Below are positions 4,235 to 43,700 of a DNA stretch of 64,000 nucleotides, piece by piece (position 1 is the first letter of the stretch; each line of letters opens with the position of its first letter). The notes beneath the pieces were generated by a model. It was not told where the DNA came from. It did no database searches and was given only the letters and a program-made list of their open reading frames with translations. A program made the translations under genes and the position numbers. Origin of the DNA: Sphaerodactylus townsendi. Its lineage: Eukaryota. The stretch lies in contig NC_059436.1 of assembly GCF_021028975.2 (NCBI RefSeq), positions 35,340,001-35,404,000 on the forward strand, read 5' to 3'.

Positions 4235-7200
4235 CTCCTTTCTTGTTGACGCGGGAGTTAGCACGAGAACTGTTTCTTAGTAACGGCTGCAGTAATAACC
4301 CGCGCCCAAGAGCGCGCCGCTCTGCGTCCCCAGTACCTCGCGTACAGTCTATTCAGGATGCTTAGTACGCTATTTCCGTAGTGTACCGTACGCTATTGGT
4401 GTAATGGCTCAGTCCTCTACAGGCGGTTGCGGCGGACGCGTAACCACGGCTTCAGAGAGCAATGGAATCTAGCACTATAATGATCTCCAAGGAGGCCTGC
4501 CAGGGTCCCAAAACACACTCTACGCAGCCATGACAACGGTTTTAGCACCACTGCTCTCTCATGACGACGGTCCTCCACTGCTACAAACGTGGTCTAGTAA
4601 CATTTGTTGATACGTACACAGGCCAGATGGTTGTACAGTGAAGAAAACAGGTGACTAATTCAGCAAGCATTAAACAACATAAAAATACATGCAGAAGCAC
4701 GAGGAAGATAGCATAGCCTTCTCACCATCATATTGAAAAAAACCATTTTAAAGACTACATATAATGCTCTATTCCCCCCCCCCCCCCCAAATTTTCACAT
4801 TTGTAGTATGCGGAGTGCTGGGCTAAGACCTAAAAGACTCAGGACTGGACCCCTGTTCTGCCATGGGAACTTGCTGTGTGATGTTACTTAGCCGAATTTA
4901 GCTCCCAAGGTTGGTGAAAGGATAAAATGAAAGATAGGACAATAATAAAAACCACTCTGGCTCTCCCTCATTGGAGAGAAAGGCAGGGTATAAATGAAGT
5001 AAATACATAAAGGCTCTTGGAAGCCTAAAGGAGACTGATTTGCTTAGGGGTACAAGGTGCCCCATGACTAACATCAGGAGATGGGGGCAGGATGATACTG
5101 CCAGATCTAGGTTGGGAAACTCCTGGAGATTTAGGGATGGAGTCTGGGGAGGGCAGGGACCCATGGGCAGAGCAAAGGGGAATTGTGCCCCCGTGCCCCT
5201 GCCATGCCCCCATCCCACCCCACAACACCCTCGCAGGGGCATGCGGCCAATGCATCGTGCACCTTCCCCCTTGGTGCTGCTACCTCACTGCAGGAACCTC
5301 AGTGGGATGGTGAACAATTGTGAGCTTCCCATGGAGAAGGCAAAAGCAAGCCTTGCCTCTGCTTGAAACAGTACCTGAGCTGAAAACCCCTTAGGATTAA
5401 GTATCACTGCTGAGAGACTGAAGCAAAATGGTGGACTGAGGCTACTATGTTAAATAGTAAAATGAATCTCAGCAGACCTCAAGCCTGCTTGTTGTCTTTG
5501 AATACAGCTAACAAGAACGGAAACTCCCCCCCGCACACTTCAGCAACTCTCCAAAAAATGCAGGGGCTCAAGCGGTCCAAATAACCCTAATTAAAAAGCA
5601 CAAAATCTGCCTGATAACTAACCCTTTTTGCAAAGAGTCATTAAGAATGACAAGGCTCTGGTAACACTTCACCTCCAAGGATTTCAACTTGAAACTGAAG
5701 ACAGCCAGGAAAGTGCTCCTTCACTCGGGCATAGCTCAGCCTTTAAAAGAGGCTCACATCAGGCCACAACTCCAGGCTTCTGCCCAGGGGAAGGAGTTCT
5801 CCACTCAAGCAAGCCATAGCCTTCTAAAAGAGCCATTCTGCATTGGAAGCTTTGTCAAGCAATATCTTCAGGTTTTCCCCCTTAGAGCTGACATAGCCAA
5901 GGTGGGCAAAAGTGCCTTTATGGTGCACAGCCAAAGTCTTTGGGAAAAGAGCTCTTTTGAGTCCAGTTCTATCAAGTCATGCCTTCAGAGTAAACTGATG
6001 ACAGAAATAGCAGGCAGCTCTGCTGTATGGTCCCCCAGGTAGATAAAACACAGACATTTATGGGTATTTATCAGCACCATTTTAAAGCCACAGTTGGCAC
6101 AATCCAGAGGAGGCATTTTGAGCTATAATGACAAAGTAGAAATCCAGAAACATTTCTTCTTTAAATGCAGTTTATTCTTCACTAGAATGAATATTGATGA
6201 GAGAAATAATTCTCCTCAGCCCCAAAAACGAGGTGAGAAAAAAACCACAGAATAGCAATGGAGAGCCTCTTTTTGCAGTGGTAAAAGGAGAACAGAAAGA
6301 GTAGCATTAATGTGGAACTACATGGAAGTCGCGACAATTAATTAGTACGTTAGCTACTGCAGAGTAAAGCAGATGCAAGGTGTGAAATGGCAGGCTGTAT
6401 GTTGCATGTTGCTTCAGTTTTCATGTGCTAGCTTTTACTGACCTCTGCGCTAAAGATAAGATTGATCTATGCACCCAGCAATGCTTCCCTAGCTTTTCAG
6501 GGAATACCCTGTAAAGGGAGCTGTATGCTAAAGGATACCAACATATGCAAGTGATGACAACAAAACTGTAACAGGAACAATGAGTTACCAGGGATGGGGA
6601 TCAGAGAATTGGAACAAGCAGAAATTTCACATTAAAATATATTTTAAAAATTGCTCCAGCCATACAGACTGGGCCCAGTATAAAGACTAGCTTCACCTTC
6701 TAACTTGTATAACAAAAGTTTTAAGCAATGTTAGAGATCATGAGCACAGACATAATGAGTCAGTTACCTGCACAGCATTATTTCAAATTTTGCTATGGAG
6801 AACACAAGTATATTGTGAGAGGTACGCAACTGAGAAACTCCCAAACACTAGCTCTCGACCCAGAATGTTACTTTGCAATGACTAAAACATTGTTTCTGCC
6901 TTTTTGTTAGCTATTTTAAAACCTAATTAAAAACCTGTTAAAAACCTGTTAGCTATTTTAAAAATCAAATAGCTAACACATCTTAGATCTGCTTAGAAAA
7001 AAAACTCAAAGAGATTTTTCTCTTTATGTATATATCACTTTGAGTAGCAGCTCTCAAGATTTATTCATTCTAAAGAATTGTATCTGGTAAAGATTTGTTG
7101 CAATCATGGATATGTTTTATATCATGCTTTATCTCATGACCATGCTTATGAAATATTAACTATTTTTCCCTCCAAGTGCATTTGGAAAAATGACTGGCAT

Positions 7201-7801
7201 TTTGAAACCTACATTTCTTAAAAGGCACTACACAGTCTACAGTTGTAAGCACTCCGGAAGAATGAATCCCATGGGAGGAGTTTATGGGGAACCTTTGGGC
7301 CTAAATGGTTAACTAAAGCCTCTGGATTTTTGCCTCCAAAAGTCTGTAAATGTAGCCATAGCAACCCAAGAAGTAGAGCTGAAGGCATTTTCTCACTCCA
7401 GGTCACTACAAAAAATGCTATTTGTTATCTGTAAGAAATACATACCATTTATACAGTTTCAAATGTTCAAAGAACACCTCATGCATAGATTGTCTTGTTG
7501 AAATCCTTAAAACAACTCTAAGGATGGTTACTATTATTATGTGTATCCCCCAAAACATTTTTCATAGTCCTATGACAACACATAGGGGTTATAAAGAAGA
7601 CACATTGATGTTCCTTGAACACATGTGCAAAGGATATCCGGAAGACAGAAAGTTGAAGGGCACCTGGCTTAAAGAGAAAAGACATTGTTTTAATGTGAAG
7701 GCCTCTTGAGCAGAACGCAGCTTGCTGGAGATATTTCTTGTACAAGTTTCCATAGCAAAAACTTCTTGCACCTTCAATGTTTGTCACTGGGGCACTGCCT
7801 C

Positions 7802-10800
7802 TTAATTAATTTCTTCATAAAAATGCTCCTCATTTCTGTTGAATATAGGGGGAAAAACATTAATTCTGCATCTGTCAATTCCTGAAAGTCCCAAGAAGAA
7901 AGGCTAATGCTTTTGTTCATCACTGGGATTCACCATAAAAGGACCTGCAAAAATGCATGTCCGCATGGAACACAAACATGATATTTCCCAAAAGTTTGTA
8001 CTAAACCAGACTTGAGAAAGACTGCAGCAAAGCTTAAAGAAATATGGAAAGTGGACCATTAAAGGATGATGGCATGTGGATACTGCAAAAAACACAAACA
8101 TGCCCCAGCTCAGACACCGACCTGGAGCAAAAACTCCATGTGGAAGCAGCCTTTTGAGAATTTTTGCTAGTGTGATGGTTTATTGCTATGCAAAACAAAC
8201 CAACGAAGCCCTGCAGTCCTGTGATGCACTAACTCACCCTTTCGGTTGCTCCTCAAGGGAACCAGACACATTAGCCCTGGGGAAGGAAAAAGCAGACAAG
8301 TGTTAAAACAGGGTGGGGTTTCTTGCCCATCTGGCTGCACAAGGAGTTTGATGTGACAGGCAACCCAAATTTAGCCCAGGGAGAGAAGAGATCACTGTGA
8401 GGACTCCAACACTGGAGGGTATGCAATTTAACAAGCAGGAGGGGCTTCTTTCTCTAGGCATTTTTCCCTGATCAGCTAAATGGGAGTCCCCAGCCCTTGA
8501 ATGCTGTAAAGGTGAGCTGGTGATTCTGTATACCTTTTCTGAAGACTTGGGCATGAAACACAGGGTTGGATCCTACCATCCATCAATAATGAAGAATGAG
8601 GAGGAGAGTGGAATACAAGGAAGATCCATGCCCCTCATGCCTGCAGCTCTGTGGGGTTGGATGTCTGCCATACCATATCATGGCTCTATATATTTCTTAG
8701 TTGCTTTGTGGGAATTGGCTAGGTGGAGGTTAAGCATGGGAACATTGTATATATACAGACCCAAGACACTCAGTGCCCCAGCCTTCCCAGAAACCTGGAA
8801 GCCACCTTCCTGCACACAGATTCCAATTTGGTTGGAAAGCAGAATTTCTGCATGTTCACCATCGCATCAGTCACAGTTCACCAAGCGCACAAGAAGGTAC
8901 ATTTTTTGTCACTAAAAGCTGTCAGACTTTCTTAAGTCTGTTATATTTACAGTGTCTTACACTACAGGAAGATTCCTAGGGTAGAAGAATCCCTTCATTC
9001 CCCGTGCTTACACGGATTCAGCCTGTGGTTCCTCAGTAGTTCCATAGGAAGTCGAAGGTTCACGAATGGATGCATATATATGCTCTGGAGAGGGGCTAGA
9101 ACACAAGGATAAGGGTGAGGGAGAAAGTATTATTTTACACTCACACCATTGTTATAAAGATAACTAATATTTAACTCTGTCATCATAGATATCCCACTAA
9201 CTTTTGCTCATACAAGGATACACAACTCTGAGGGTGTCCAGGTACATTCCCATTTTGAACAGTCCTTCATAGGCTACCTGACGGCAACATTAGCTTTTAA
9301 CATCCCTTGTTCCAAAAGACACACAGTTTCAGCCACACTACACAGATAATGGTTTCATAACAATTGATTAAAAAACCCTGTAGGATAACGTGCACTAACA
9401 TTTTAAGCAGACAATGCCCTAAACACTTTCTGAAGGTATCATTCCACACAAAGCCTTTGAACTCTCCATGCGGCAGAGAAAAGGAGGGCACATGCCAGGC
9501 AATCAAGCATTAGCTTTGACAAGCCATAAAATGAGGCACACAGTTGGTTGGCCTGCAAAAAAAATGCTACAAAGAGGCCAGCCTCCTATTACCAAAGTAC
9601 ATCACTTTATTCACAAAAAACCCCACAGAGTCTGAATTGCACTTCACACAATAATTACCAGGTAAAAACTATCTAGATGCTTACAGTCAAAATCCTTTAA
9701 AATGGGGCACAACTGCCTGACAAGTATCAGAGGTAGAGAACTGGCTTAGAATGCAAAAAGGCCTCTGGTATCTTCAGTTGAAAAGATCTCAGGTAGTGCT
9801 TGGAGAGAAAGAACCTCTCTCTGCATGAGAACCTGGACAGCCACTATCTGGAGAGGCTCAGTGCTCAGTGGCAGGGCACTTGCTTGACATACAGAAGTCC
9901 CAGGTTGAAGCCCTGACATCTACACTTAAAATGAAGCCACAGCTAGACTCTGTCCAAAACAACAGAAAGCTGCTGGCTATCAGAACAGACAACACTGAGG
10001 CCCCTTCCGCACTTGCATAATAATGCTCTTTCAATCCACTTTCACACTGGTTTGCAAGTGGATTTTGCTATTCCGCACAGCTGCAAAGTGCATTGAAAGT
10101 GAATTGAAAGTGTATTATTCTGCATGTGTGGAAGGGGCCTGAGTTAGATGGCCCAGTAATGAAGTTTCGTTTGAGTGCTTCTTTTTGCTGACAGAATGCA
10201 ACTTTTTGGAGCCACAAATTATCATCCCAGCTGTATATGGTCAATCAGGGAGTTCTTGAACAGGCGTCTTAGCAAGACTGTCCTCTCATCTTATTTGTCA
10301 CACTCACCTAAAATGTGGTGCCAAATTCATACTGGTGTAGGCCTTCTCAGGAGTGGATCTAGAATGACAAGAAACCAATTTCAAGGGTTGCAGCAGTAAG
10401 GTTCCACCAATGGCAATAAGCAAGACCGGGTGAAGCAAGAAAGTGGGAGTTCTGAGTTGGGCATAAGGTTGCTCAGGAAAACTGGAATGTTGATGTTGGG
10501 AGTTTCAGTGGATTCATCACATCCAAACACGCTTTCTCCTCTTGGAGCTTTTGTGTTCACAGCTCCTGCCCTCTGTTTTACAATCAGCGCAATCATTTTA
10601 TCCATGACGTGATGATTTTCTGGCTCATTTTAATGTTGATATATCAGCATTTTTAGCACACCGCATTGTTACAGGGGTTTGGAAACCACTTCCAGAATTT
10701 TTATAGTGGAATGCACTATGTAAACTACATGAAAACGCACACATACAACATTTACTTATCCTTCTGAGAAGGGCTCTCAGCCTACACAAACAATTTCACA

Positions 10801-13800
10801 CCCCAGATGAGTTTTCCCAGGTAGTTAGAAGAAGAGACACGTATCTCACATCTTCACCAATGCAGAAAAGAAACCTAGGTTTTGTCAGTGTGTCCATCTA
10901 AAGCCATCTCTTAGGACTCTAACTAGTCATTTCCACTTCTAAGACAAGCCCTATATTCTGTTAAAATATCCTATGGGAGATATACGCTGGGGAAAAATAT
11001 CTTCCCTTCCTTAGGATTTGGACTTGCCAAACTATCAAAATTAATTTTAAAAGTTTTAATCTTTCCTAACAGAAGATGGGGGGGGGGGGGGGCTTATTTG
11101 CACCCAAGCATGGTCAAAGTGCCAATAAACAAAGCTCTGGGAATCCTAATGGCCATCCAGGCCAGAGACAATAAAATGGCAAACTCATACCTAATCTGGA
11201 ATTGGGGGGGGGGGGGGGGCAGTTCAAGAGGCTAGAGTATATTTTCCTAAAGTCCTCAGGAATGTTTGACCCATAAGAGGCAGGCAAACAACGGAAATAC
11301 AATCTTTTTGAGTGGGATCCATTTTGGCAGATTCCATCTGCAGAAAGCTCTCACACTTGAGCTCCATCTTGGTGGCTCCCACTGCCCATATGGAACAAAA
11401 TGCAGCTTGCCTGGACAAAGGCCCCTTCTGCACATGCAGAATAATACACTTTCAATTCACACCTGTTTGCAAGTGGATTTTGCTATTTCGCACAGTAAAA
11501 TCCAGCTGCAAAGTACAGTGAAAGTGGATTGAAAGTGCATTATTCTGCATGTGCGGAAGGGGCCAAAGACTCCCAGGTAATGGGAAGCTCTTAAACAAAC
11601 TGTATCTTTATAGAGTCTCTGCTTAGAACAAGATCAACTGGGGCATGTATAGGGGCTGAGGGACAGAGATCACATGTTTACACCTTTTCTTTGTATTCTT
11701 TGATCAATCTGCTGCTGTGCAGTGCTGTATGTGTGTGGACTTTATACTTTAAACAAATTCTTTACTATTTTCTGTGTACTACATAGACCTCTACAGTTTC
11801 AGCACTCTATTTAAAACAGAGGCCAGGGGAAGGAAGGTGGTCAGTTGCTAAATCATTACCTCCCTAGAGGCATGCAAGTACAGTAAGCTATCCCCACAGT
11901 AACAGTCACCGGGTAACAGGACACACAGACACTAAATGGAGCCTTAGAATGGCAATGCAGGAAGGAAAGCTGGAAGTAGTGTCCTTCTCAGTGGGTAATT
12001 CCTAATGTAAACAGAGTGGCAGCATACCAAAGAAGAAGCAAGAGAAAAACACCTCAAAGGGCTGAGACAACAGCATGTCTCCAAGCAGAGACTTCCTATG
12101 GTTGCTGGGTGCCTAAACACCTCAGAGAGCTAAATGGAGTGGCATTGGCGGGTCAGTGGGGTCATTCTGCCACCTATGCAATGGGTGAACACAATAGAAA
12201 GCACAAGTTTCTGTTTGAGAGGCAGAACTGGTAAAATCTGGAGCGTACTGTTAATGCCTATGGATCTTTTAAAGCCTTCCTGTGGAAACTCCAAGTTTTT
12301 TTTCTCTCCCACTCTCAGTATATTAATTGCATTAACATGCTTTACTCTGTTAGGCTGCAAGTACGTAGCTACCAACTGGCTGAATTAAGGCTGTGTGGCC
12401 TGGCCTGCTACCCTCACTCAGCCAGCTATTATTTAGTTTTCTATTTCCTGTCTTGAGAACATGCTGAACTATTCATACCGAAAACAATGGAGAATTTAAT
12501 ATTGTTTTGACCACTGTGAATATATCAAAGATTCTGTTGCCTGGCTTGCAATAGTGTCAGGTCATTCTGCCCTGATTTTATTACTCATCATTCCAATGGG
12601 AAGTAGGAACCATTTTCTCCCACTCATATCCAGAGGGGATGGACTGTGGCTTAGAGCACCTGCTTTGCACACAGAAGGTTCCAGCTTCGGTAAAGGGATC
12701 TCTGCCGCCATGTATTGGAATAGGATGTTCTTTGCCTGAGACTCCCGAACAGCCACTGCCAGAAGGTGCACTGAGCTACACAGCCTAACAGTCTAGATTG
12801 GTAAAGAGCAGCTTTATAGATTCCTATTGGAGAGTAGCTATGTCTTAGTAGTAAAACACACATATTGCAAGTAGGAAGTCGCAGGATCAATTCAGCAGGT
12901 GCTGGTACAGAACTTTCTCTGCCTGAGAGCTTCAGACAATGCACAGCTAAAAAAGATCAGCAGTAGCTTCCTACTGAGGGGATAGGGTGGGGTAAAAATC
13001 TAACATAAAGACAAAACATGCAACTGACCAGCCTTTCAGCAGGGAGATACAGCAACAAGCCCAAACATTTTATGCCTCAAAGTTCACCCAACACCTTAAC
13101 ATTCTTTCAGGCTGTGACCAAGTTCCCTCGATGTCCCCCTCCCTCCAGCACCCTCACTGGGTGGTAAAAGAACTATCCCCTTACTGGAGTGTTGTGGGGT
13201 TTCCGGCCTGTAAGACCGTATTCCAGTAGCATTTTCTCCTGACGTTTCACTTGTGGCTGGGTTAGAACCTCTGAAGACGCCAGCCACAGATGCAGGCGAA
13301 ACGTCAGGAGAAAATACCCGGAAACCCCACAACACTCCAGTGCAGAGGCGTAGCAAGAGGGGAAAGCACCGGGTGCACCGGTGCGTCCTATGCCCCCACC
13401 CTAGAATGCCCTGCCACACCACGTCCCTGGAATGCCCTTGCCGTGCCCCCACAGGGGCATGCACCCAGTGTGTTGCGCCTACCCCCTTGGAGCTACGCCT
13501 CTGCTCCAGTGATTCCGGCTGTGAAAGCCTTCAACAATATCCCCTTGCTATTCTGACTTACGTGGCTGGCTCCTGTGTTCCTTCAGCACGGATTCTGAAA
13601 TCACAGAAAGCACATCTCACTGCAACCACTTGCTGACTGCAATAAAGACTGTTTCCACACTGTGATGATTCTCCATGCAGTTTTCATTACCACTGAGAAT
13701 GCAGAGGAATTCACAGCAGAAACAGAGGACCCATGTAGTTTCCCCTGTGGTTTCCTTACCTTATCCTCAACCTCAGCCATGTTCCCATAAGATGGCATTT

Positions 13801-16800
13801 CTTTCTGAACTATGAAAGCTGGAAATTCAGAGGTGCCAGCAAATCATGGGAATGGATCATTGTAATGTCATTGGGCCATAATGCTCTTGCAATTGTTAAT
13901 TTTTTAAACAACCACAAAAATGCTGTCTTGTGTTGGCTGGGGGGGGGGGGCAATGGCGGTGGTGGGAGGCAGAGAAAAAGAAAATATGTTTTGTAATGTT
14001 ATGGATTGGTTTGTTTAAATTTGTTTAAATTTACTGGGGGTTTGTATGTTTTTATCTTTGGCTGTACACCACCCAGAACCCTTCCGGGNNNNNNNNNNNN
14101 NNNNNNNNNNNNNNNNNNNNNNNNNNNNNNNNNNNNNNNNNNNNNNNNNNNNNNNNNNNNNNNNNNNNNNNNNNNNNNNNNNNNNNNNNNNNNNNNNNNN
14201 NNNNNNNNNNNNNNNNNNNNNNNNNNNNNNNNNNNNNNNNNNNNNNNCTTCAAAACCATGCACCTTCCTGTCCACAAAGCATGAAAAGGCACTAACTGCA
14301 GTCTCTCCCAAAAGATTGTTTCAAACTAGGATAGGGAAAGATTGCAGCAAAGAAAGACCAAAACCAGGTTTTCCCCTAGATACACAACCTTAATGTGGAA
14401 ACTACCAAAGTCTGCTTTTATCCCTCAGGCTAGCACTATCTTGTCAGTGTGGTGTAGCAATTACCATATATACTCATGTATAAGTCGAGTTTTTCAGCAC
14501 ATTTTTTGTGCTGAAAAAGCCCCCCTCGACTTATACGAGTCAGCTGAATTTTAAAAAACATTTTAGGGTTTTTATTTTGTCGGTCACTAGGGGGCGCAGT
14601 TTTTAGGCTAGCGGCACCAAAATTTCAGGATATCATCAGGTGACACTCCTGATGATACCAGCCAAATTTGGTAAAGTTTGGTTCAAGGGGTACAAAGTTA
14701 TGGACCCCCAAAGAGGGTGCCCCCATCCCCCATTGTTTCCAATGGGAGCTAATAGTAGATGGGGCTACATTTTGAGGGTCCATAACTTTGGACCCCTTGA
14801 ACCAAATTTCACCAAACCTGGGTGGTATCATCAGGATAATCTCTTGCTGATACCAGTCAGGTTTGGTGATGTTTGGTTTAGGGGGTCCAAAGTTATGGAC
14901 CCCAAAGGGGGTGCCCCATCCCCCATTGTTTCCAATGGAAGCTAATAGTAGATGGGGCTACATTTTGAGGGTCCATAACTTTGGATCCCCTGAACCAAAC
15001 TTCACCAAACCTGGGTGGTATCATCAGAAGGGTCTCCTAAAGATACTCTGAAATGTTGGTACTGCTAACATAAACATTCCTGATCAAGGAAGCAGCGTGG
15101 TCCTAGACAACCCAGCAGCAACACCAGTACTACAGGCATCACATACCTTAAGCAGATTGTCCTTCTGGATCAGATTCATGTTTCTAATTCAGCAAAAGGC
15201 AGAACTCTGTTTTCCACAGAGACCAGCTAGACACTTATGAAAAGCGCACAAGCAGGACGTGAAGATTAACTTTCCCAACCCCTAGATCATGTGCACCGTT
15301 TGGCACTCAAAAGTGGACTGCCTTTAAAAATGGAAGGCTCACTCTTTGCTATTTTGACTAATCCATTGATAAATCTACCCCTCTGTGAAACTGACTGCTC
15401 TGCATTATCTCTGTACCTATTGGGAAAGAGGCTGGCTTGTCATGCTGAAAAGGTAGGAGTCTCTATCTTCTGGGGGGGTGGGGGCGGGGAGAGGATCCCA
15501 GGTGTTCTAAAAAAATAGGCCTCTGTAAACCCCCACCCCCTCAACAGGGAAAGAATATGCTCCCAAATAACATAATATTGCTCAAAGAACCCTTGGTATT
15601 TGATTCCAAGTTCAGAAAAAGCAAGTGCTTTAGAAGTCACAGGTCTCTCCCACTCCCATGCCATCTTGTCCTTCCAGCCCACCTGGGACCAGGGTGTAGC
15701 TCTTTAGGATCCACATATGAACTCTCTTCAGCCCTGCAATGACAAAAGAGAGTCTTCAGTGCAGAAGCAAAAGACCAGGTAAAGTAGCTTACAATGTCAC
15801 ATTTCCTTTTTCACTTATATGAGCTGAGCAGGTTATGCAAGCCATCGGCTTGTAATGAAGTTACAGATCTGCCCAGCTTGGGTTAACCCGAAAACTCTAC
15901 TTCATTTATCTCAATTGCCAATCATATGGTTGGACAGAAGAAAGCAACCAGAGCTAAGGGTGCATTGGCCATTAGGTTCACAGGGAAAAGTGGTGGGATC
16001 TCAATGGCCTGGGGGCTGCCCCTTTCCTAGGGTCATTTCCAGGCCAAGAGAGGTATGGCTCTTGCCCTGCCTGGGGTGGGTGGCAGCTGCTGCAAACTGG
16101 TGCTGATAACGTGACAACAAAACAAAAAAGAAGCAACATTTACAAGCAGTATAAAAATTAAAGATTTTCACATGGACAGTCATTTACAGCATTCGTCTAC
16201 ACAGCATGCTCTCAAAATACATCAACTAGACATGCATGCCCTATTCTCATTTTATTTATATATTCAGTTTTTCTTGGGTTTGACCAGCAGCCAACACAAG
16301 AAAGGAAACTATGGTGAAATGGTAAGCGCAGAGGCATAGCTCCAAGGGGGCAGGGGGGTGCGCGACTGGGAATTCTGGGGTAGAAAATGCAATGGCAAGA
16401 AATTCAAAAGGACCCTTAAAGATGGTTCTTCAGTTTCTTGGCCCCAAGCCATGAACAACAGTTTTAATAATCACAGTCAAGTGTAAGCATAGAAGCTGCT
16501 TAAACCTTTATAATCATGGGGCAGTCATACTACACAAACAAGTACTTTTCTCTTTTTTTATAGCCTCGTACTTGGAAATATGCAAGCAACCAGAGGTGTA
16601 GTAAGGGGGAAAAGCACCCAGTGCACTGGTGTGTCCTCTGCCCTGCCACGCCCCTGCCATGCCCCACAGGGGCATGCGCCCAGTGCGTCGTGCACCCCCC
16701 GGTCTCCTTAGAACTACGACTCTGCAAGCAACACTAGTTAAAGAGCAAAAAGCAGCCAGGCTCTAATGGTCACAGGCTGGGTCTTGAGCACCCCAAGACA

Positions 16801-19800
16801 TGGCTATACAGTACCTGTAACTTTATTTAAATGAAATTTTGCTTACTTTAATTGATGTCTGTTACAGAAATCCTCTTTTTTTTTCCAGCTCAGAGTTTTG
16901 GTAAGTTTTAATTTTAAAAACCCTAACTCCCAACAAGCCCTTCCTGTTCCAGCTGCGACAGACTAAAATACAACCGCTACCGACTAAAAACAGAAAAGTA
17001 GAAAGATTTGTTACTCACTCCATTACTGATTTCATCGTTTTGTATGGAGGAGACTCTTTTGGCATCACATAAATGCGCTCTGATGGACGGCGTCTGCAAT
17101 CACAAACAGCTGGTCTAAGTGCCCTCCCATACTCAGCCTCTCGTGAGGTCACCACACAGGTGTCGAACACAACTGCTCAAAGAGGCTATTTAGTTGACTC
17201 CCGGACGATGGATGCCACAGATCCATTCCGCGAATGGTGGTATTTTCCTGCAGACCAGGGAGGCATCCCCGAGCACAACAGGCTCCCAGGTTGGGAAGGC
17301 CAGGAAGACCCCCTCAGGGAATCAATACAGCCTCTGGGGCCACGTAGATGCTTGACTCTGCTCTGTTATGAGGCTACTGTAAACTCTGCTCCCTGGTGCC
17401 ACCGAACCCAGAGAGAATGGAACTGCAAAAGGCTTCATTCCTAGATACATTCTGGTTCAGCACACAGACACACCCCTAACTGAGATCTTGGGAATCTGTC
17501 ACATTAACACAGGTTAGTTTCTAGATTTCATGGTTGTAAAGAAAGACTAGAAAGTGTGTGGGCAGTGCCTGTGGAAATCTCAGAAGTCAGAGCAGAAATT
17601 CAGCAGGTTCCCTGCAATTATGGTAACAATACAGCTCCACACCCTACATTCACTCTTGCCATCTCCCTGATGCTGGCAGGGGATGATGGGAACTGCAGCC
17701 CATAACATATGGAGGGCCGCGAGTTTGGCACCTATGCCTGGTGTGATCTGTTGAACAACATAAACAAACATGTGCACATCTATTCAAAGGGCATATTTTT
17801 TTCAGGAAGCTTTTCACAGTGCAAAATTCAGATTATTATTATTCTGAAATACAGAAATAAATTGCCCACCGCCAGACCTGCTGCGGCTGGTGGTTTGGCA
17901 TATGTCACTTACGGGACAGGCGGGACGGACTTTTTGGGAGCAAGTGATTCTTTTCTCTCTTTTTTTTCTTTTTTCTCTCTTTTCCTTGGAGACAAGACAA
18001 AGACAGCCGCTGTGACTACAGCTCTGGGGGAACGGGCTACAAAACCAACCAGGATTTTACTGCTCTGATATATCTCTGGGCCCCAGATTAACATGCTCAC
18101 TACTTTAAAAGGGCTCCTAAATTAAACAAAACAGGTGGGCATCTACAATAGAGCTACTAAAAAAAAGGTTTAGTAGTAGCTCAACTCACTCCCTGATCTG
18201 CCACCCCAGGAGAAGGGAGTTTACCTCATCCTGCATTGTTGCCACGTGCAGTAGCCACTGGTACCCAGTCCTAGGAGCACAAGCGAGATAGGAAGAGCCA
18301 GATCAGAGCACAGGTCCCTTTGTGCCTGCATCCTGTTTCCAGCATTGGCTAGCCAGATATCTCCAGAAGGCCACAAGTAGGGCATAAAGCAATAATCCTT
18401 CCCTTAAATCCTTCCCAATAGGCCATGCTGGCAGCAATCAGGGACTGCTGGGAATCGTACTCCATGAACATCCGGGGCGCCAGAGTTGGACACCCCTGCC
18501 TTAAAGTTATCCCATAGGTTAGTGGTTCTCAACCTGGGGGTTGCGACCCCTTTGGGGGTCGAATGACCCTTTCACAGGGGTTGCCTAAGACTCTCTGCAT
18601 AAGTGTTCTCCATCTGTAAAATGGATAAATGTTAGGGTTGGGGGTCACCACAACATGAGGAACTGTATTGAAGGGTCACGGCATTAGGAAGGTTGAGAAC
18701 CACTGCCATAAGTGATACTGTCAAGCTGCCTCTGAACACACACACGATCTTAGCCAAAAGGTCAAGAAGTGATTGCTGCCTTTGAACACAGGAGTTTCCC
18801 TTTGCCATCATGGCTAATAGCTGCTGGCAGACTTGTTTGATTTGGTCAACTCCGCTATTAAAGGCAGCTTACTGAAAATAAACCTGCAGACATCATAAGC
18901 AGCAGAAAGAGTTGTAGGGCCAACAGCTCAATGGTAGAGCTGATGCCTTGCATTAAGGAAGTTCCAGGTTGAACCCAGTTTTAAAAGTTCCTTGCGTAGC
19001 AGAACGTGGCTGCCAGAGATTTTGGGAAACTTCTGACAATAGCAGGGTGCTGGGGTAGGGGACGGACCAATAGCCTGATAAAGAGTTACATGTTCAAGGA
19101 GCACTAGCAAAAGGGAGAGGATAGTTAAGGGTCTCATCAAGAGCAGCAAGGAGTAAAAAACTTTTCCCGCTAAAGAACAGGAGCGTGAGCCATCACTGCA
19201 CTGGGGACCCACTCCAGGCAGCACAAGGGCCCTGATGTAACAAAACCCAGGGAAATGGGAAGCTTCTCTTCTTTGAAGCCTGCAAAGACTCACCAGTGTT
19301 TCTCTACCAAGCGCAGGATGATGATGGCTATGAGCAGCAGAACCAAGGTGGAAAAGAAACCTAAGACAGCCAGGGAGCTCACAATAGCCACCAGCGTACT
19401 CTTGCTCAACACCTCAGGGCAAACACATGTTGTCCGTGATGCTGCGACAGAAAGGGGAAGGGCGCGTATGAGAAACCATTCGCCCAGTCCAGAATTCCCA
19501 AAGCCTTTCCTTCTAACGTTGAAGCCAGCACAACTCTTCAAACTTTTTCTGTTCCCAATCTCCATATGATTCCCAGGCAACCCAGAGCATTCACTCCAAA
19601 TCAACTTGCTCTCCTCTGAGCAACTGAGGAGGGCACAGTATCTCATACATTTACGCCCCCAGAACCCTGCTCCCCTCCCCTCCACAGCCAAATGGCTGAT
19701 TTTGGAAAAGAGCGATGTCTTACCTGGTAGCAAGGCCTGCCGGTTCCCAACTAACATCGCTTCGGAATCTTCGGGGAACTATGGATGAGAGCATTGATTT

Positions 19801-22800
19801 AGTTCACTATGACATTGTGGCTCCATAGCAACACAGCTTGACAGAAGAGTTCAGTGGTCAAATTTGTGGCTGGCCAGTCCAAATGTTGGCATTATTTATT
19901 TGTTTAAAACATTTTAATGCCATCTTGACCCCAAGTCAGTGGTCAAAACGTTGAAACACATTTTAAAATGTCTATAAATAAAATGACAAAAAGAATTCAA
20001 CAAAACACAAAGATGTAGATGCACTTAAATAGGAAGGAGGGTCGATGAGAGAACACTAAACAAAGCACATTTTCAATCACTGGTGCAAGCCAAAGATAAA
20101 GGGGGACAAACACATCTCCCTGGTGAGGGAATTTCTCAGTTTCAGTGCCACTAATGAGAAGATTCTTTCTTGGGCTCATTCCGCACATGCAGAATAATGC
20201 ACTTTCAAACTGCTTTCAGTGCTCTTTGAAGCTGTGCGGAATAGCAAAATCCACTTGCAAACAGTTGTGAAAGTGGTTTGAAAACACATTATTTTGCGTG
20301 TGCGGAAGGGGCCTTGGATTACTACACATCTAAACTTAGATGGCAAGGACTGCAAAGATCACTGTAGTAGCTGGGTAGGTTCATATGGGAATAGGTGGTC
20401 TTTAAAGGATAGCAGTTGTAAGGACAGTTCTTTGTTTGCCCTCAGAGATCTGCTGCCAGGCAAATTCAACACACCTAGGCTGGAAGCACATTAGCACAAT
20501 GGTCTGATGAAAAACAAGGCTGCTAAATATTTCTGCCTGGGGGAGAATTCTTTTGTATTCTCTGTGTGTTCATGCAGCATTTTCAAGTGTTCCAAGCACA
20601 TCACATCAGTGGGACAGTATCATTATCCCTATATCAGGCTGCATTCACAGCAGAAGCAAAATTCAAATCCAGGGCTTTCTGCTGTGCCATTTAGTCTTTT
20701 GGTTTCTGCGCTACACAAGCTCGCAGTTTAAAATTTCTCCAGCCACAGTTATTCCTTATTTACCTTGAACTACCAATTGCCTCCGGACTCCTGCTCAGCC
20801 CATGCACAGTGGATTTAAAGTGACACTCAAACAGTATCATTTCCATACTCACCTTCCTTACCATCCTTACTGATCTATGGACAATATTTTTACTGTCTTT
20901 GAATTCATCTGAAAGGGTACTAATTGGGTGTCCTTTTGCTGATGGTTCTTGAGAATCAAAGCCATGCTCTTGCACTCTAGAGGTCTTGGCCCCATTCATA
21001 TTTGCTAGAAATCACAGACAGAAGATTCAGATTTGGTTAAGAGTCAACAGAGGGATAATCTGGTCCCTCCTATGGTTACTGGTTATAAACACTGAGCCAT
21101 CTGTATAAGACCTAAGACATAGGGCTCCCCATAACCTAGTGTTCTCACCAGTGCTTTTCAACACATATATAAAGCCACTTAATTAGATTGTCTGCAACTG
21201 TAGAGTTGGCGAGATGGCGAGAACGCACACTATGTAAGTTTTTTCTTACGCTTTCAAGGAGGGTAATGTTGGCCAGAAAAGCTGATGCTCTGGAGGTGAT
21301 CGACTTCACAGGTGGATCTAAGATTTGTCATCCGGTGGATCATGTAACTAGGAATTGTGTTGGAACTAACCTTACAGATAGAAAAATGGGTTGGGACTAT
21401 CTCTATTGGATTTAAAACCTGCCCTTTTTTCTAGACTTTGCTGATCTAGCTACAGCAGTTGGTTTCTGTGACCTCAAGGCCACTGCAACACATTATACAT
21501 GGGGCTGCCCTTGAAGATTAGTCATCTCTGATTTGGGATGATGCTACTTTTTTAAAAAGCAGATGTGGAGTCTACACATTTGACCCTTTCTTCACACAGT
21601 CATTTTTCCTAACTGTTATATGCCTTCTTAATGTTTGCAAGGAGGATGCAAACAATCTATTCCAAAGTGAGCAGTTTAGTTGTCCATATGGGGTCTAGGT
21701 TTAAAAGCCTCATCTGCAGCTATTTCACAATCCTACCTCTCACATAACCAGAAAAGGACAACCATCTTAGCTGCAGTTTTACCAGGCGTATTCAGTTGGA
21801 TATATTGCCCAATGCTTTTTACAATGTTCTGATGGTGTTTAACAATTAAATACGAATAATTTAGCATCAGGATCAAACTACCTGCTTGGTTAGAGAATTG
21901 TAGTTAGAACCCACCAGGTGACTCAGCTCCACCATTAAAAATATTGAGAATAACTAGTCTTTTTCTCAAATAAATTATGGGAAAGAAGCTTACTTGGGGC
22001 TCCATATCAATACCTTGATATTTCATTTGAGGTAGAGAAGCATGACATGGATTTATAGCCCTTTCCACTAGGATTCAAATAACCACTCAGCTACTTCTCA
22101 GAGTCCATGGGAGCAGGTAGTGGTAGTGTTCAGAGCTCTTTTTTTGAACTATTCATTTGTTTTATAGGCTGCCCTTTTCTGGTTAACTCAGGGAGGCTTA
22201 CAACAGCTACCATTACAATAAATAAATTCAATAAAACCATTAATAACAATCATATCTTGTCACCATTCCAAAATTTGAGGGATGACATATCATCCATATG
22301 CCATACCATCATCCATAGTCACATCAAAAGGGAGGGAAAGGGGATGGGGAGAAGAAAGGGAGGCCAGCTAGATGGATCCTGCCATAGTCTTAATCAGAGG
22401 CCTGGTAGGCTCTGCAAAGCTGGGATGGGTCCCACAGGGTCCTGATCTTACTTGACAGAGAATTCTACTAGACTGGTGCCACAGCCTTAAAGGCCCTGGT
22501 GTTGGTTGAGGACAGCCAGACAATTTTGGGCCAAAGATCATCAATATTTTGTTGTTTGCTGAACACAAGGCTCTTGGAGAAACATTCTGGGAGAGGTGGT
22601 CTTGCAGATATCTTACAAGCACACACACACACGGGCGCGCGTAGCAACCCAAGAGGCTTTCAAAAATACCAGCTGTGATAGGGCATTGGGAGGAGTGTTG
22701 CTATTCAAAACAAATGTAATCAAGAACGCCACTGGGCATAACCAAGCACCTGGATACACCTAAAACAGCTCTTTGGATCACTGAAATTATTCAATTATAT

Positions 22801-22876: not shown

Positions 22877-25040
22877 TTGATGATCTTTTATGATTTTTTT
22901 CAGTATATTTCTTCCTGGCTCTTGACATCTACTGAAGAGGTCTTGTTTTTGTATTCTTGCATGAGGGTTAAGAACAGGGCCTCCTGACATGGCACCCATT
23001 TTGTGGACACTGTTGCTGGAGTATGAAGGTGAAAGGAGGTTCTCAGGATATTAAATTCTGCATCCAAAACCAGCCTTCTGTGATTACAATGGAATCATGG
23101 AATACCCACTGTTCAGTGCACTTCTATGGCCAGCGCACTGATTCTGCACAATGAATAACCAAAAGCCCCCCAGCCCTTGAAAGCTGTGTGTGTAGAAACA
23201 GACAACCCATAGCCATTTGCTAAAAAAACCAAAATCCTTACACAGTCTCAACAACTACTGAAAAAGGAACCACTAGCCAAACTACCAGAGCAGCACTCAC
23301 AGGAAGACGAGGCAATGACGCTTATGGAGAATACCAAGGCACCCAGACAAGCTAACAGCATAATTGGGATGTTAGACCAATTCCCACACCCACCAAAGAA
23401 TTCTGACTTAGAGGATGCTTGCAGGGCAGAGCTAGACAGAAGGCCTGTGTGGATTCTGGGTCTAACTGTGACAGCACAATAGCCTGGAATGTTTGCCAGC
23501 CAATAGGCTGAACTTGCCCCAAGCCTCTACCATCCCCTCCCCAGGTTTTCAGTACTAGGGTAGATTAGCATGTGCTCTTAAAAGCCTGTTGGTTTGCTAC
23601 ATGCAAAGATAAGGGGATACTGCAGCTACAGGAGAAACTGACTTTTTTCTTTTTGCTAGCTAGCCTAAAGAGAGAATTATAGTGACACCCAACATGCCCT
23701 ACAGCCAGTAGCAGGAGTCTGACCCCAATGAATCTTTGTTGGGAATACAACACATCCTTGCTGTGGCCCCAGTGGCAGAAACTGAGGCGGAAACAACTTT
23801 AAGGCACACTCCTTCCTTTAACAGAACTGTTAATCCAGTATTATCCTCACAACATTCCATCTCCCAATCACCATAGAACTATAGAAGTCCTGGCCAGCCT
23901 CACTTCAGCTAGAGGCTGGCTAATAGGTTTTCCTAACTGCACAGTATCTGAGGAAAGGCTCCTCACAGAAGCAGAATTTTTGCCCTGAGTTTTGCAGATC
24001 TGAAGCCCCCAAGGATTGAAGTTGGGCACTTATACACACAAAACACATACCTTACCTTTGAAGTCTGGTTCTGCTGAGTTCCTTGGCACAGACAGGTGGA
24101 GGCGGGACACTTCTTATGCTGTCCAAAAGTCTCCTCAGTAGTTAAACTATCTAGAAACATTTCCCCACAAGTATGAGGGCTAGAATCTTTTTTTCTTTTA
24201 AAATAAGCAAACATTCAAGGAAGTCAGATTTGATTTCAAGGGATGCAGCTGAAGCAACTCAAAAGCACAATCAAGTCTGTGAAAAGGGTGTATCTTAAAC
24301 AGGACTCCTGTTTTATTATGAATAGAACCTGTGAACAAGAGAAATCCACTTACACAACAGAAAACTGTCTTGCCGCAACAGGCTACCCAACTGTACAATA
24401 TTTTAGGAAGGACTGGCAGAGGTGAAGAGAATAATGCTGTCCTCAACTGGTCTATTTTCACCTCTCCAATGGAACAGATGGATCTGCTTCCCCCCTACCC
24501 CCCATACAACCACTGACTGCATACTTTGCTTTGTTGTTTGCTATGAGTGGTGGACTACTCCCAGCCACCCTGTTCCTGTAATATCACACACAAGAATCAA
24601 AATAATTACAGCAGCAGCAGAAATGGTGACAGCAGCAAAATATCCTGAGTCAGGTGACAAATTTGGAACAAGCAAGGTGAAGGCCAGGCTGGCCATCTGT
24701 CCAATACAACTGAGTAAGAAATTGCAACATAATCCATACAAGCGCAGCCATTTCCATTTTATTATGAACAAGGGAGATGGGTCAAAAGAGGGCTTTCTCC
24801 AAGTCCCAAACCCTGCCTTGCTTGGGAGGGATTTCACAGGGTCCTGCACAATCCCTGTATCAGTGCCCAGCAGATTTCTTTTCCAGCCTCACAGAATGGG
24901 GCAGTACAAAGGCCAGTGCCAGAAAAAAACAAAGCCTCTGATGACACCACACATAGATGAGAACCACACTGCACCCTCTGGGGATGGGAGGTCATTGCAG
25001 TCAACCATAATGCAAAAGGAACTGGAGTCTGGAATAATGC

Positions 25041-40700: not shown

Positions 40701-43700
40701 GTTGCTATGGCGACGAGGGCCTAGTTGGGCCGGGGAGGAGGACGTTGGACTTCTTTGGGGTGTCGAGAGGGAAGCTTGGACGAGGAGGGTGCTGTGGGAA
40801 TGTAGGACCACGCTGTCTGGATGAAATATAATATGTGTGACACTGGGGAAGAATTTATGGAACTCCACTATAGGAGGGTTTGGCTGGGGTAGCGTGGCCA
40901 GCTCCGGGTTAGGACATTCCTGGGGAATTTGGGGGTTGGAGACTGGGGAAGGTGGGGTTTGGGGAGAGGAAGAGTGCAATACCAAAGACTCCACCTCCCG
41001 AAGCAGCCATTTTCTTCAGAGAAACTGATCTTTGTGGTTCGGAGATCAGCTGTAATTCTGGAATATTTCCAGGCTCCACCTGGAGGTTGGAAACCCTAGT
41101 GTGGGGTGTCTGGGTGAGTGGGAGGAGTCTATGGGTGCTATCCCAGAAATTGGGGTAAAGGGATGCAAGAGAGGCTGTACTTGAGAAAGCGATATACTAC
41201 CATGGGCTGTGGGGAAGGTAGAATTATGCCTGCAGGAGAAAACAGGGGCACCTTGTTGTACATTATAAGCAAAGGGTTCTGAGCATCTTATGATTAAGGT
41301 ATGGACCTACTGCATATGCAGACTGTGCTCATAGCCTTGAGAGCAAGATTGAGGAGTGGTTGAGGTATTCACCAAAGTGCTTTGGGACTGGAAGATGCTG
41401 CTGAAAAACAATCTAGCAAGTTTGCTTGGAAGGATGTCTTACTTCCTTACGTAGGGCTTACTTCCAGGAAAGTATTCTTGAAATTGCAGTTTTTATGTAG
41501 TGTATGATAGAGAGGACTATAGGCTTGTCTAGCGTTCCACTGAGCTTGAATATCTGAGTACCCATCTAATGAAACATGGTGTCTGGGGTGCCAACAACCA
41601 CTGCAAGCTGTTTGTACATAGAACAGGTTATAACACCGCGTGGTTTGGCTCCCCACCATTGTATTTGTATTTATTTTTAAGTCATTTATAGTCTGCCTTT
41701 CTCTCTGAGATTCAAAGTGAATTAGACAATGCAAGTCAAATACTACCAACAGGATGGGACATCCAATAAACTATTGTTGGGTAATAACATTACCAAATAG
41801 TGTCATGTGAGCTGAAATGGACAGCAACCAGCGGTCCTGTGGATTAGATCTGTGAAAGAAAGCATTAGCAGTTGCAGACCATGAGCAAAGTTGTGCTGTT
41901 CACCGCCCTGAGCCCTTTGGGGGAGGGCAGTATACAAAGTGAATAATACAATACAAAGATGTGGCTGAGCGCACTGTTGTGTTGGACAAAGGTGTGTATT
42001 AAGAGAGTTCTCTGGATCTTCTCATGATACAACTCTTCATGCTCAGGTATTGAAGATCTCTGTTTAAAAAGGGATGAGCTGACCAAACAGATACGGCTAG
42101 AGGAAGAGGAGAAGGTTAAGCTGCAGAATGAAATCCGCCTCTTGACAGAGAAGCTGGCTCGTATTAATGAGAATCTGGCCCGCAAGATGGCTTCCCGGAA
42201 TGAATTTGATAAAACCATTGCTGAGACAGAAGCTGCTTATATGAAGGTATTGGCTGTAGAACTCTCATAGCTTGATTTGCTTTTCTTCAAGGTGGCTGGG
42301 CAGAGGCTGCAATGGAGGAAAGGGCTGGTCAGTTGCAGCTGACTTATTGCGACCCTGTAGCATTTCCAAGCCAAGAGACGTTCAGAAGTGGTTTGCTATT
42401 GCCTGCTTCTGCATAGCAACCCTGGAGTTCCTTGGTGATCTCTCATCCAAATACTAACTAGGGCTGACCCTGCTTAGCTTGCAAGATCTTATGAGATAGC
42501 ATAAGCATAAGCATTTTATTGTCATTGTGCACGCACAACGAAATTTACAGCAGCATTCCTCGATGCACACAATTTCAGACTCATACATCATCCTCACTTT
42601 CCCCTTCCTCCACCCATCCCTACACAGCCCCAAATACATCAATATGAAGCAGCGGAGTTTAGCATAGCCACAGCTCTAGAGTAGAAGCTGTCTCTAAGCC
42701 TCTTTGTCCGAGACGTGGATGAGTGTGCTGGGCCATGCAGGCTATGGTTGCAGAAGCTGTATGCTTATATTAAGTGCAATATTCTTGCCAGATGTCTTGG
42801 TACTGCTCTTTGCTTTTCAGGAACTTGAGTTCAAATCAGTGCAGCCAAAATCTTGCTGAGCCTTCTTAATGGCTGGCCTTCAGGAGACCATTCTCTGATG
42901 CATGGCATTTTGAAGTCTGTTCACACACACACCAGTGAAACATACCATTAGGTTAACTTTATTGGGTGGGGAGAGGTAGAGAATCCTCTGTTACAAAGAA
43001 CAAAATCTCCAGAATTCTTTAACCTCTATAAGCCACTGGGACCTGTGTTAAAGCACTCCCAAGATGACTGCAAGTTGTGCTTGGTTCTTCCAGCTTTGCT
43101 GATGAACAGCACTAGGCAAATAGGAAAATACCAATGCTCATGGCAGTCTCCTTCAATATTAAGCAAATTCCAACATTTCTGGAAGCATTTTCTTGTTTGT
43201 TCTTAGCCACCTTGTCTTTCACCTTATGTGCATTGAAGAACTGGCGGTGTTTCAGCCTCTACAAGCACCTACCTTGCAGACTTGCTTAGCCTTCTTCACT
43301 TTCTATGATACAATCATGGCCCTTCCTGTTCTCTCAAAACCCAACTGAAACTTCCTTCCTTCCAGGGATTCTTACTCCTCAAACTATAACTCCAAAACTC
43401 TCCCCCACCCCCACCCCAATGTAGATCAGGTTGTTTTTTTGAAGCAGTTTAAGTAGTAGATCTTGAATATGGGCGTTTTTTGTGCTGGGAAGTACTGGTT
43501 GTTGAATTACAAACAAACCTGAGACAGATTATGCCTATTTATGAGATTCAGTCCTTAACTAAATGTTATATACAAACATGCAAAAAACTCCATATTGTTT
43601 ACCAGGGAATCTGTTTTTGGATGAGAGAGGGTTTATATTGAATCAACCTGGTCCCAATTCAGGTATTTTAAAAACCTGTTTGCATGTCATGTTCCAAAGT

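What the first reader, a model, noticed from the sequence alone, without database searches (positions are those of the whole stretch)
7802..17984. Cytoplasmic tail built from symmetric phase-2 cassette exons, mostly one tyrosine module per exon
Seen: the exons after the TM exon are 72, 75, 51, 33, 84 and possibly 39 nt. All are multiples of 3 and open in the same phase 2, and the last exon also starts in phase 2. They share peptide patterns: ERIYVMPKE / SSYVDPKE, EHIYASI / EHFYEEI, KESPPYKTM / KEMPSYGNM / EPSTSYGT. Inference: the tail grew by tandem exon duplication. Any cassette could be skipped in frame, allowing combinatorial tuning of SH2 docking sites by alternative splicing. Repeated phase agreement together with recurring motifs seems unlikely by chance, though I have not quantified this.
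Basis: partly seen in the sequence, partly recalled or inferred. Interest (0 to 1): 0.7.

Follow-up and report, generated by a model that had tools for sequence, protein, structure and literature searches.

The report
Squamate membrane adaptor with skippable exons
A gecko gene for an unstudied membrane protein of lizards and snakes encodes its inner tail in seven short exons that can each be left out without shifting the reading frame; its conserved tyrosines are likely signalling docking sites whose set splicing would tune, a design already known from PECAM-1.

Summary
The exon anatomy is real. Joined, they match RefSeq LOC125441491 X1 of Sphaerodactylus townsendi, and five of the eight tail junctions are seen spliced in one run. 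Such a run has a chance of about 3e-5. 'One tyrosine per exon' fails in the gecko (0,2,1,0,1,2,0,1) but fits the squamate consensus (5 of 8). KEMPSYGNM is in no gene model; it is likely a decayed YxN exon. All named homologues are squamate. Tyrosines, a proline motif and a terminal HxYEE[VI] motif are conserved. Gene models of 8 of 12 species skip whole tail blocks in frame, 7 of them with a tyrosine. Tandem duplication has moderate support only. Best reading: a single-pass adaptor, probably the squamate TMEM210 orthologue, likely docking Src-family kinases at both ends of the tail with spliceable docking cassettes between. This is a new member of a known design (PECAM-1, LAT/NTAL-like). No phosphorylation, binding or tissue data exist here.

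The parts
23301..23361 (-). Unannotated first coding exon, predicted signal peptide, phase-1 donor
   Evidence: Hydrophobic (mean KD 2.6) and like the N-termini of 11 of 14 orthologue models tested; joins E0-E1-TM in an open frame. Not in RefSeq X1/X2; skipped by the X4 contig.
20853..21004 (-). Ectodomain exon E0 (phase 1-0), ends in a basic RxxR site
   Evidence: P0003 aa 1-49 map here; boundaries; motif
19724..19778 (-). Ectodomain exon E1 (phase 0-1)
   Evidence: P0003 aa 50-67; joint E1/TM in X4
19294..19441 (-). Juxtamembrane Cys plus transmembrane exon (phase 1-2)
   Evidence: weak Pfam TMEM210 match, E 0.67, model positions 1-41
17913..17984 (-). c1, 72 nt, phase 2-2: polybasic stretch and proline motif, no Tyr
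   Evidence: joint c1/c2 in X4; +xxPPxP in 18 of 19 species
17019..17093 (-). c2, 75 nt, phase 2-2: two Tyr
   Evidence: Tyr columns kept in 17 and 11 of 19 species
15683..15733 (-). c3, 51 nt, phase 2-2: one Tyr; its donor is read through in one contig, giving a stop 12 codons on
   Evidence: Tyr in 18 of 19; skipped in Crotalus models
13760..13804 (-). cX, 45-nt exon-like element with the KEMPSYGNM peptide; in no model; likely a decayed copy of the family's YxN exon
   Evidence: Best of 2557 unannotated candidates by a crude splice score; phase 0-0 in that frame
13562..13594 (-). c4, 33 nt, phase 2-2: no Tyr in the gecko; in RefSeq X1, skipped in X2
   Evidence: the family has Tyr here in 15 of 19 species
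   Evidence: joint cM/c5 in X4; Tyr in 19 of 19
9012..9095 (-). c5, 84 nt, phase 2-2: two Tyr in the gecko, one in most orthologues
8238..8276 (-). c6, 39 nt, phase 2-2: no Tyr
7802..7835 (-). Last coding exon, opens in phase 2: terminal H-[IFL]-Y-[ED]-[EQ]-[VI] motif and stop
   Evidence: motif in 19 of 19 species
6153..7801 (-). Likely 3' UTR, with AATAAA near 6171
   Evidence: An X4 contig spans 6153-7836; signal

Best explanation
This gene encodes a single-pass membrane protein of lizards and snakes, probably their TMEM210 orthologue, whose tail lies on seven frame-neutral exons and likely works as a phosphotyrosine adaptor: a proline motif near the membrane and a terminal YEE[VI] motif would dock a Src-family kinase, and splicing would vary the tyrosine docking sites between them. 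Shown: exon structure, phase symmetry, most splice joints, motif conservation, in-frame skipping in gene models. Inferred: signal peptide use; kinase binding through SH3 (c1) and SH2 (last exon); phosphorylation of the internal tyrosines; recruitment of Grb2 (YxN) and Crk/Nck-type (YxxP) adaptors; origin of the roughly 18-codon cassettes by old tandem duplication with continuing gain and loss.
For: Exons and frames match RefSeq X1/X2; 5 of 8 tail joints are seen in X4. Seven Tyr columns are kept in 17, 11, 18, 15, 19, 17 and 19 of 19 species; the modal residue fraction is 0.86 in Tyr columns against 0.66 in others. Terminal motif in 19 of 19; YEE in 16, YDE in 2; +xxPPxP in 18, RxLPPxP in 12; YxN in 15 of 19. 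pYEEI is the Src SH2 ligand (PMC3507883); YxN is named as the Grb2 motif (PMC2196071). Skipped blocks are c3, c4, cM, c5 and c5+c6, never c1 or c2, in same-species model pairs. Blocks are 18, 19, 18 and 18 aa; Tyr register p 0.003-0.004; module profiles beat 3000 of 3000 column permutations. Atlas look-alikes include SCIMP, LIME1, GAPT and poxvirus A36, all under 0.9, so leads only. TMEM210 is the most frequent Pfam family, 8 of 18 members.
Against: No phosphorylation, binding, protein or tissue data. Isoform skips come from automatic annotation and may be splicing noise that survives because it keeps the frame. The gecko's only modelled skip has no Tyr, and its modelled tail has no YxN and no RxLPPxP. 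Gecko exons are not significantly alike after correction, in protein or DNA. Profile likeness may be convergence on kinase/SH2 consensus, and 10 of 19 species are snakes. Every TMEM210 match is under the Pfam cut-off (best 18.2 of 27 bits, E 0.0035), and the profile search of 1.84 billion proteins returned no named non-squamate at E up to 0.001. The Nck consensus pYDxV(AYST)x(DEC) (PMC2661883) is not met by most members.
Confidence: 0.6

Rival explanations
1. The anatomy is a by-product. Frame-neutral exons accumulated in a disordered tail by duplication or exon gain, the skipped isoforms are unregulated noise, and only the full tail matters.
For: Runs of symmetric exons are enriched in disordered proteins genome-wide (PMC3632108). 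Which block is skipped differs between species. The gecko skip removes no Tyr. X4 shows retained intron sequence between c3 and cM.
Against: The same blocks recur: c5 in Pantherophis, Crotalus and Notechis; cM in Pogona, Anolis and Hemicordylus. c1 and c2 are not skipped in any same-species pair.
Confidence: 0.3
2. The exons did not arise by tandem duplication. Tyr motifs evolved separately in pre-existing exons and look alike because kinases and SH2 domains favour an acidic residue at -3 and a hydrophobic one at +3.
For: 0 of 36 gecko exon pairs pass Bonferroni, and no in-register intron-flank homology was found. The profile signal is strongest at -3, with smaller contributions at +3 and +4. 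Only 2 of 21 module pairs pass correction.
Against: Convergence does not explain eight phase-2 introns, equal block lengths, or Tyr at codon 6-8 of each exon. Recent repeats exist in Podarcis (three copies, one skipped as a unit), Anolis and Rhineura.
Confidence: 0.25
3. The gene is not TMEM210's orthologue but a squamate-specific gene beside ANAPC2 that resembles the TMEM210 model only through a generic Cys-plus-TM segment.
For: All Pfam scores are under the cut-off, and other TM families score as well for single members. No mammalian hit.
Against: TMEM210 recurs in 8 of 18 members, and in every match whose range was printed it falls within model positions 1-55. Cattle TMEM210 lies in the same 500-kb interval as SSNA1, TUBB4B and FAM166A (PMC6304683). 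No match over the cut-off elsewhere in this genome (a loose search).
Confidence: 0.3
4. It is a cleaved receptor or adhesion protein rather than a ligand-free adaptor: the ectodomain of about 70 residues, cut at a basic site, has its own ligand.
For: Signal peptide, an RxxR-type site in the ectodomain of 18 of 19 species, and invariant ectodomain residues E52, R62, Q63 and C75.
Against: The ectodomain is short, acidic and varies in length; no folded domain by Pfam, PDB or Atlas structure search.
Confidence: 0.15

Closest known systems
PECAM-1 (CD31) cytoplasmic domain
   Same: A tail on eight exons subject to alternative splicing; loss of exon 14 removes SHP-2 binding (PMC5664058, passages). 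The same logic of spliceable docking sites.
   Different: PECAM-1 has six Ig domains and two ITIMs. Here there is no folded ectodomain, ITIM-like matches occur in only 6 of 19 species and not in the gecko, and all eight introns share phase 2.
Transmembrane adaptor proteins (LAT, NTAL, PAG, LIME, LAX, SIT, TRIM; also SCIMP, GAPT)
   Same: Short ectodomain, one TM, long tail with several Tyr motifs (PMC2803307). LAT and NTAL are 11-exon genes with YxN motifs (PMC2196071). Atlas features point to SCIMP, LIME1 and GAPT at 0.81-0.85.
   Different: No sequence homology shown. A signal peptide and a longer ectodomain (about 70 aa against 6-16). No cytoplasmic CxxC. Expression in leukocytes untested.
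Mammalian TMEM210 (Pfam PF15195)
   Same: Weak match over the Cys-TM segment and the same genomic neighbourhood (the position directly downstream of ANAPC2 in human is recalled).
   Different: Mouse Tmem210 spans four exons within about 1 kb, is testis-enriched, and its knockout is fertile (PMC9226692, passages). It therefore cannot hold this long cassette tail (inferred).
Nck/Grb2-recruiting Tyr tails: nephrin, vaccinia A36, EPEC Tir
   Same: The terminal and c5 motifs resemble the Tir and A36 phosphopeptides printed in PMC9333988. A36 is an Atlas look-alike at 0.84.
   Different: Most members have E, not D, at +1 and end one residue after +3, so the Nck consensus is not met; the YxN sites lie N-terminal of the terminal motif, the reverse of A36.

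Membership tests
Transmembrane adaptor proteins (TRAPs) | Single transmembrane segment | tested here: met
   One hydrophobic segment conserved in 19 species
Transmembrane adaptor proteins (TRAPs) | Long tail with several potential Tyr phosphorylation sites, no catalytic domain | tested here: met
   6-11 Tyr per tail in 19 species; no domain by Pfam or PDB
Transmembrane adaptor proteins (TRAPs) | Short extracellular domain | tested here: inconclusive
   About 70 aa after a predicted signal peptide; about 35 aa if cut at the basic site; longer than in LAT, NTAL or PAG
Transmembrane adaptor proteins (TRAPs) | Cytoplasmic CxxC palmitoylation motif (raft subgroup only) | tested here: not met
   No CxxC in the juxtamembrane stretches printed for 19 species; would fit the non-raft subgroup
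Transmembrane adaptor proteins (TRAPs) | Inducible phosphorylation by Src/Syk kinases and SH2 recruitment after receptor engagement | not testable with these tools
   Motifs only
Transmembrane adaptor proteins (TRAPs) | Expression in leukocytes | not testable with these tools
   One spliced run of unrecorded kind
TMEM210 (PF15195) | Score at or above the Pfam gathering cut-off (27 bits) | tested here: not met
   Best 18.2 bits; 8 of 18 members match at E up to 1
TMEM210 (PF15195) | Signal peptide, juxtamembrane CxC, TM | tested here: met
   CxCP in 9 of 9 lizards, a single Cys in 10 of 10 snakes. That mammalian TMEM210 has this layout is recalled; PMC9226692 says 'two transmembrane domains'.
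TMEM210 (PF15195) | Conserved position next to ANAPC2/SSNA1/TUBB4B | tested here: inconclusive
   Gecko neighbours by Pfam: ANAPC2, tubulin, phostensin/taperin, CMI2B-like. The cattle 500-kb list has TMEM210, SSNA1, TUBB4B and FAM166A, without order. Human order recalled.
TMEM210 (PF15195) | Testis-enriched expression | not testable with these tools
   No tissue information
PECAM-1-type spliced docking tail | In-frame skipping of Tyr-bearing tail exons | tested here: met
   7 of 12 species by gene models; not seen for a Tyr exon in the gecko
PECAM-1-type spliced docking tail | Regulated, tissue-specific isoform switch that changes partner binding | not testable with these tools
   No data

The most novel reading that the evidence does not exclude
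Mammalian TMEM210, a small dispensable testis protein, is the stump of an ancestral Src-family scaffold that squamates keep in full. Its tail is an exon-per-motif array that gains and loses docking sites by exon birth and death (three repeats in Podarcis, a doubled YxN module in Anolis, a decayed YxN exon in this gecko) and is tuned combinatorially by regulated splicing.
Probability: 0.25. Interest if true: 0.65.

Novelty: new member of a known kind. Interest (0 to 1): 0.42.

Why it matters
If right, it gives a function class to an uncharacterised squamate gene family and a possible ancestry to mammalian TMEM210. It is also an unusually clean natural case of modular evolution of a disordered signalling tail, with one phase throughout and about one motif per exon, where gain, loss and splicing of docking sites can be followed across 19 species. 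The design principle itself is in print (PECAM-1; PMC3632108), so a specialist would find it neat rather than startling.

Tried and rejected
KEMPSYGNM as an eighth phase-2 cassette: rejected, no phase-2 acceptor without a stop in that frame. Its peptide alone ranks only 121 of 60,662 windows against the family's c4 profile, and 5th of 2,327 in the c3-cM interval by best single match. Exon duplication from gecko DNA: no pair passes correction among the exons; with flanks, one 18-nt out-of-register match (c1 downstream intron against the c4 acceptor, 0 of 300 shuffles) and one overlap artefact (cX/c4). Ranking isoforms by contig depth: not valid, one depth per contig, and that contig includes ANAPC2. 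The c3/c4, c4/cM and c3/cM joints were not seen in X4, which proves nothing; the TM/c1 joint was not listed (the tool dropped one joint row at a repeat). Run search: no RNA holder listed; X4 was judged to be RNA only from its GT-AG joints. X1-X3 cover introns evenly and look like DNA. A single-sequence search with P0004 found only the gecko protein. PDB search: two weak HP1 hits, E 0.74 and 0.98, rejected. Atlas structure hits, TM by query up to 0.33, rejected; a second Atlas look at the TM part gave no result. Homodimer prediction of the Cys-TM part: no verdict. PF15195 in the own genome: two hits at E 3.2 and 8.7 elsewhere, under the cut-off, and this locus was not picked up, so the search is weak. 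Earlier findings: none by place or by sequence. Paper searches with no listing. PMC2268406 is not held. No structure was predicted, as the tail looks disordered (Atlas pLDDT 0.48).
Full report
Setting. The finding lies on the minus strand between an ANAPC2 gene and a beta-tubulin gene. Pfam confirms ANAPC2, tubulin, a phostensin/taperin-type gene and, beyond the tubulin, a CMI2B-like gene; the SSNA1 name for the small gene near 42,000 is recalled, as Pfam gave only a coiled coil. The TM exon matches RefSeq 'uncharacterized protein LOC125441491' of Sphaerodactylus townsendi at 100% and has one match in the genome.

The observation. After the TM exon (19441-19294) come c1 72, c2 75, c3 51, c4 33, cM 51, c5 84 and c6 39 nt, then the last exon. 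All have AG/GT ends and all eight introns are phase 2. The joined frame lies letter for letter in RefSeq X1, and without c4 in X2. Run X4, of unrecorded kind, shows GT-AG joints at E1/TM, c1/c2, c2/c3, cM/c5, c5/c6 and c6/last, that is 5 of 8 tail introns; TM/c1, c3/c4 and c4/cM are not listed. Using human counts from PMC3632108 (passages and section 16 read), seven successive 2,2 exons have p = 3.0e-5 given a phase-2 start, and eight introns of any one phase 2.2e-3. The same paper counts 671 of 78,502 exons in runs of 2,2, so such runs are rare but known. Tyr per exon is 0,2,1,0,1,2,0,1: the title's 'mostly one module per exon' holds for 3 of 8 gecko exons.

KEMPSYGNM. This peptide (13804-13760) is in none of the three gecko models. 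In its frame it is phase 0-0, and the only phase-2 acceptor within 100 bases upstream is followed by stops. It is still exon-like: it ranks first of 2,557 unannotated candidates by a crude splice score with recalled weights (13.7; real exons 6.7-20.5), and it holds one of only two YxN[VILM] motifs in the minus-strand frames of 11.5 kb. It sits where 15 of 19 species have a Tyr exon, often YQNV or YGNV, and where the gecko's c4 has none. Its peptide alone is not a significant match to that exon (rank 121 of 60,662). I read it as a likely decayed copy. An N stretch in the same intron could hide a small phase-shifting exon, which I cannot exclude.

The family. A profile of two sequences found 18 proteins, and a profile of those 18 found 15 among 1.84 billion representatives. 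Every named one is a squamate; three are unnamed. In 19 species, one model each, seven Tyr columns hold Tyr in 17, 11, 18, 15, 19, 17 and 19 species. The terminal H-[IFL]-Y-[ED]-[EQ]-[VI] motif is in 19 of 19, +xxPPxP in 18, RxLPPxP in 12, YxN in 15. An unannotated exon at 23361-23301 supplies a signal peptide like those of orthologues and joins in frame, so the protein is predicted to be type I.

Skipping. Isoforms were taken from cluster look-ups of P0001 and P0002, 10 of the 18 first hits and 10 proteins, so counts are lower bounds. Of 12 species with two or more models, 8 lose a whole tail block in frame: Sphaerodactylus c4 (no Tyr), Pantherophis c5 and c5+c6, Crotalus c3, c5+c6 and both, Notechis c5, Pogona cM, Anolis cM, Hemicordylus cM, Podarcis c4 and one repeat unit. 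Four do not: Thamnophis elegans, Python, Erythrolamprus and Vipera differ at the N-terminus, in a six-residue insert or in the C-terminus. Blocks in other species were mapped to exons by alignment, not by their genomes. These are automatic models. One X4 contig reads through the c3 donor, which gives a stop 12 codons on; the Phrynosoma model also leaves the family sequence at this point, starting with the same Trp, and a Vipera model leaves it here too. A short-tail form is therefore possible.

Duplication. Against: 0 of 36 gecko exon pairs pass correction in protein (best p 0.0025) or DNA (best 0.003), and the flanks show no in-register homology. For: skipped blocks are 18, 19, 18 and 18 aa; the first Tyr of all five Tyr exons lies at codon 6-8 (p 0.003-0.004, 200,000 draws); Tyr-anchored family profiles score -13 against a null of -94 +/- 14, with 0 of 3,000 permutations as high, though only 2 of 21 pairs pass correction and the signal is strongest at -3, as kinase sites share anyway (that confound is recalled knowledge). 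Podarcis, Anolis and Rhineura carry recent module repeats. I put old tandem duplication at about 65%.

Mechanism. pYEEI is the Src SH2 ligand (PMC3507883, passage), RxLPPxP is the class I Src SH3 ligand (recalled), and YxN binds Grb2 (PMC2196071, passages). The two likely kinase anchors lie in c1 and the last exon, and c1 is not skipped in any same-species pair; the skipped exons carry the internal Tyr. The likely working is two-point docking of a Src-family kinase, phosphorylation of internal sites and recruitment of adaptors, with splicing setting which sites are present. All of this is inferred. The gecko has lost YxN and has only the weaker KxxPPxP. The terminal motif resembles the Tir and A36 peptides in PMC9333988 (passages) but misses the Nck consensus of PMC2661883 (passage) in most species.

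Identity. TMEM210 is the most frequent Pfam family (8 of 18 members; best E 0.0035, 18.2 bits against a cut-off of 27) and, where ranges were printed, matches over the Cys-TM part. Cattle TMEM210 shares a 500-kb interval with SSNA1, TUBB4B and FAM166A (PMC6304683, one table row); that human TMEM210 lies directly downstream of ANAPC2 is recalled. Mouse Tmem210 has four exons in about 1 kb, is testis-enriched and dispensable for fertility (PMC9226692, passages). I put orthology at about 70%; the Pfam membership test is not met.

Known kinds. PECAM-1 has a tail on eight alternatively spliced exons, one of which carries SHP-2 binding (PMC5664058, a review, passages). TRAPs share the architecture (PMC2803307, passages). 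PMC3632108 describes assembly of disordered regions from successive symmetric exons. PMC2999339 and PMC7205035 were seen as passages and add nothing. None of the 21 papers listed for TMEM210 (of 22) nor the 12 listed (of 22) deals with this squamate gene by title or abstract start; subscription journals were not searched and no supplements were read, so a mention in a table cannot be excluded.

Verdict. A real, non-random gene anatomy, correctly spotted in outline, with errors in detail. It is a new member of a known kind, function untested. Interest 0.42.

Noticed in passing
window 24056-24500 joined to 21004: An X4 contig runs from the ANAPC2 3' flank through a donor at 24056 into E0, skipping the signal-peptide exon. 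This is a possible ANAPC2 read-through transcript and may be why RefSeq X1/X2 lack a signal peptide. A contig across two genes does not prove one transcript.
   Followed up: partly
window 10359-15682: X4 covers this intronic stretch in several patches, while the c2/c3, cM/c5 and c5/c6 introns have bins without cover: slow splicing or a long alternative 3' end after c3.
   Followed up: partly
window 1-64000 and L005-L010: The order CMI2B-like(+), tubulin(-), this gene(-), ANAPC2(-), SSNA1-like(+), taperin-like(-) would differ from the recalled human order by one inversion with a break beside TMEM210.
   Followed up: partly
window 20853-21004 and orthologues: A conserved basic site (mostly RRAVR[KR]) in the ectodomain of 18 of 19 species looks like a furin-type cleavage site.
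   Followed up: partly
window 19294-19441: Lizards have CxCP before the TM (9 of 9), snakes a single Cys (10 of 10); one Cys is invariant and could form an inter-chain bond.
   Followed up: partly
P0048 (Podarcis), P0059 (Anolis), P0051 (Rhineura), P0044 (Hemicordylus): Lineage-specific repeats inside the tail: three 15-aa Tyr units, a doubled YQNL unit, a doubled c5 unit, and RGSPP repeats.
   Followed up: partly
window 10005-10140, 11430-11565, 20170-20320, 14590-15080, 18520-18705: High-copy interspersed repeats, some with inverted ends, fill the introns; not classified.
   Followed up: no
L009:2100-2560: A long simple TGGA-type tandem repeat.
   Followed up: no
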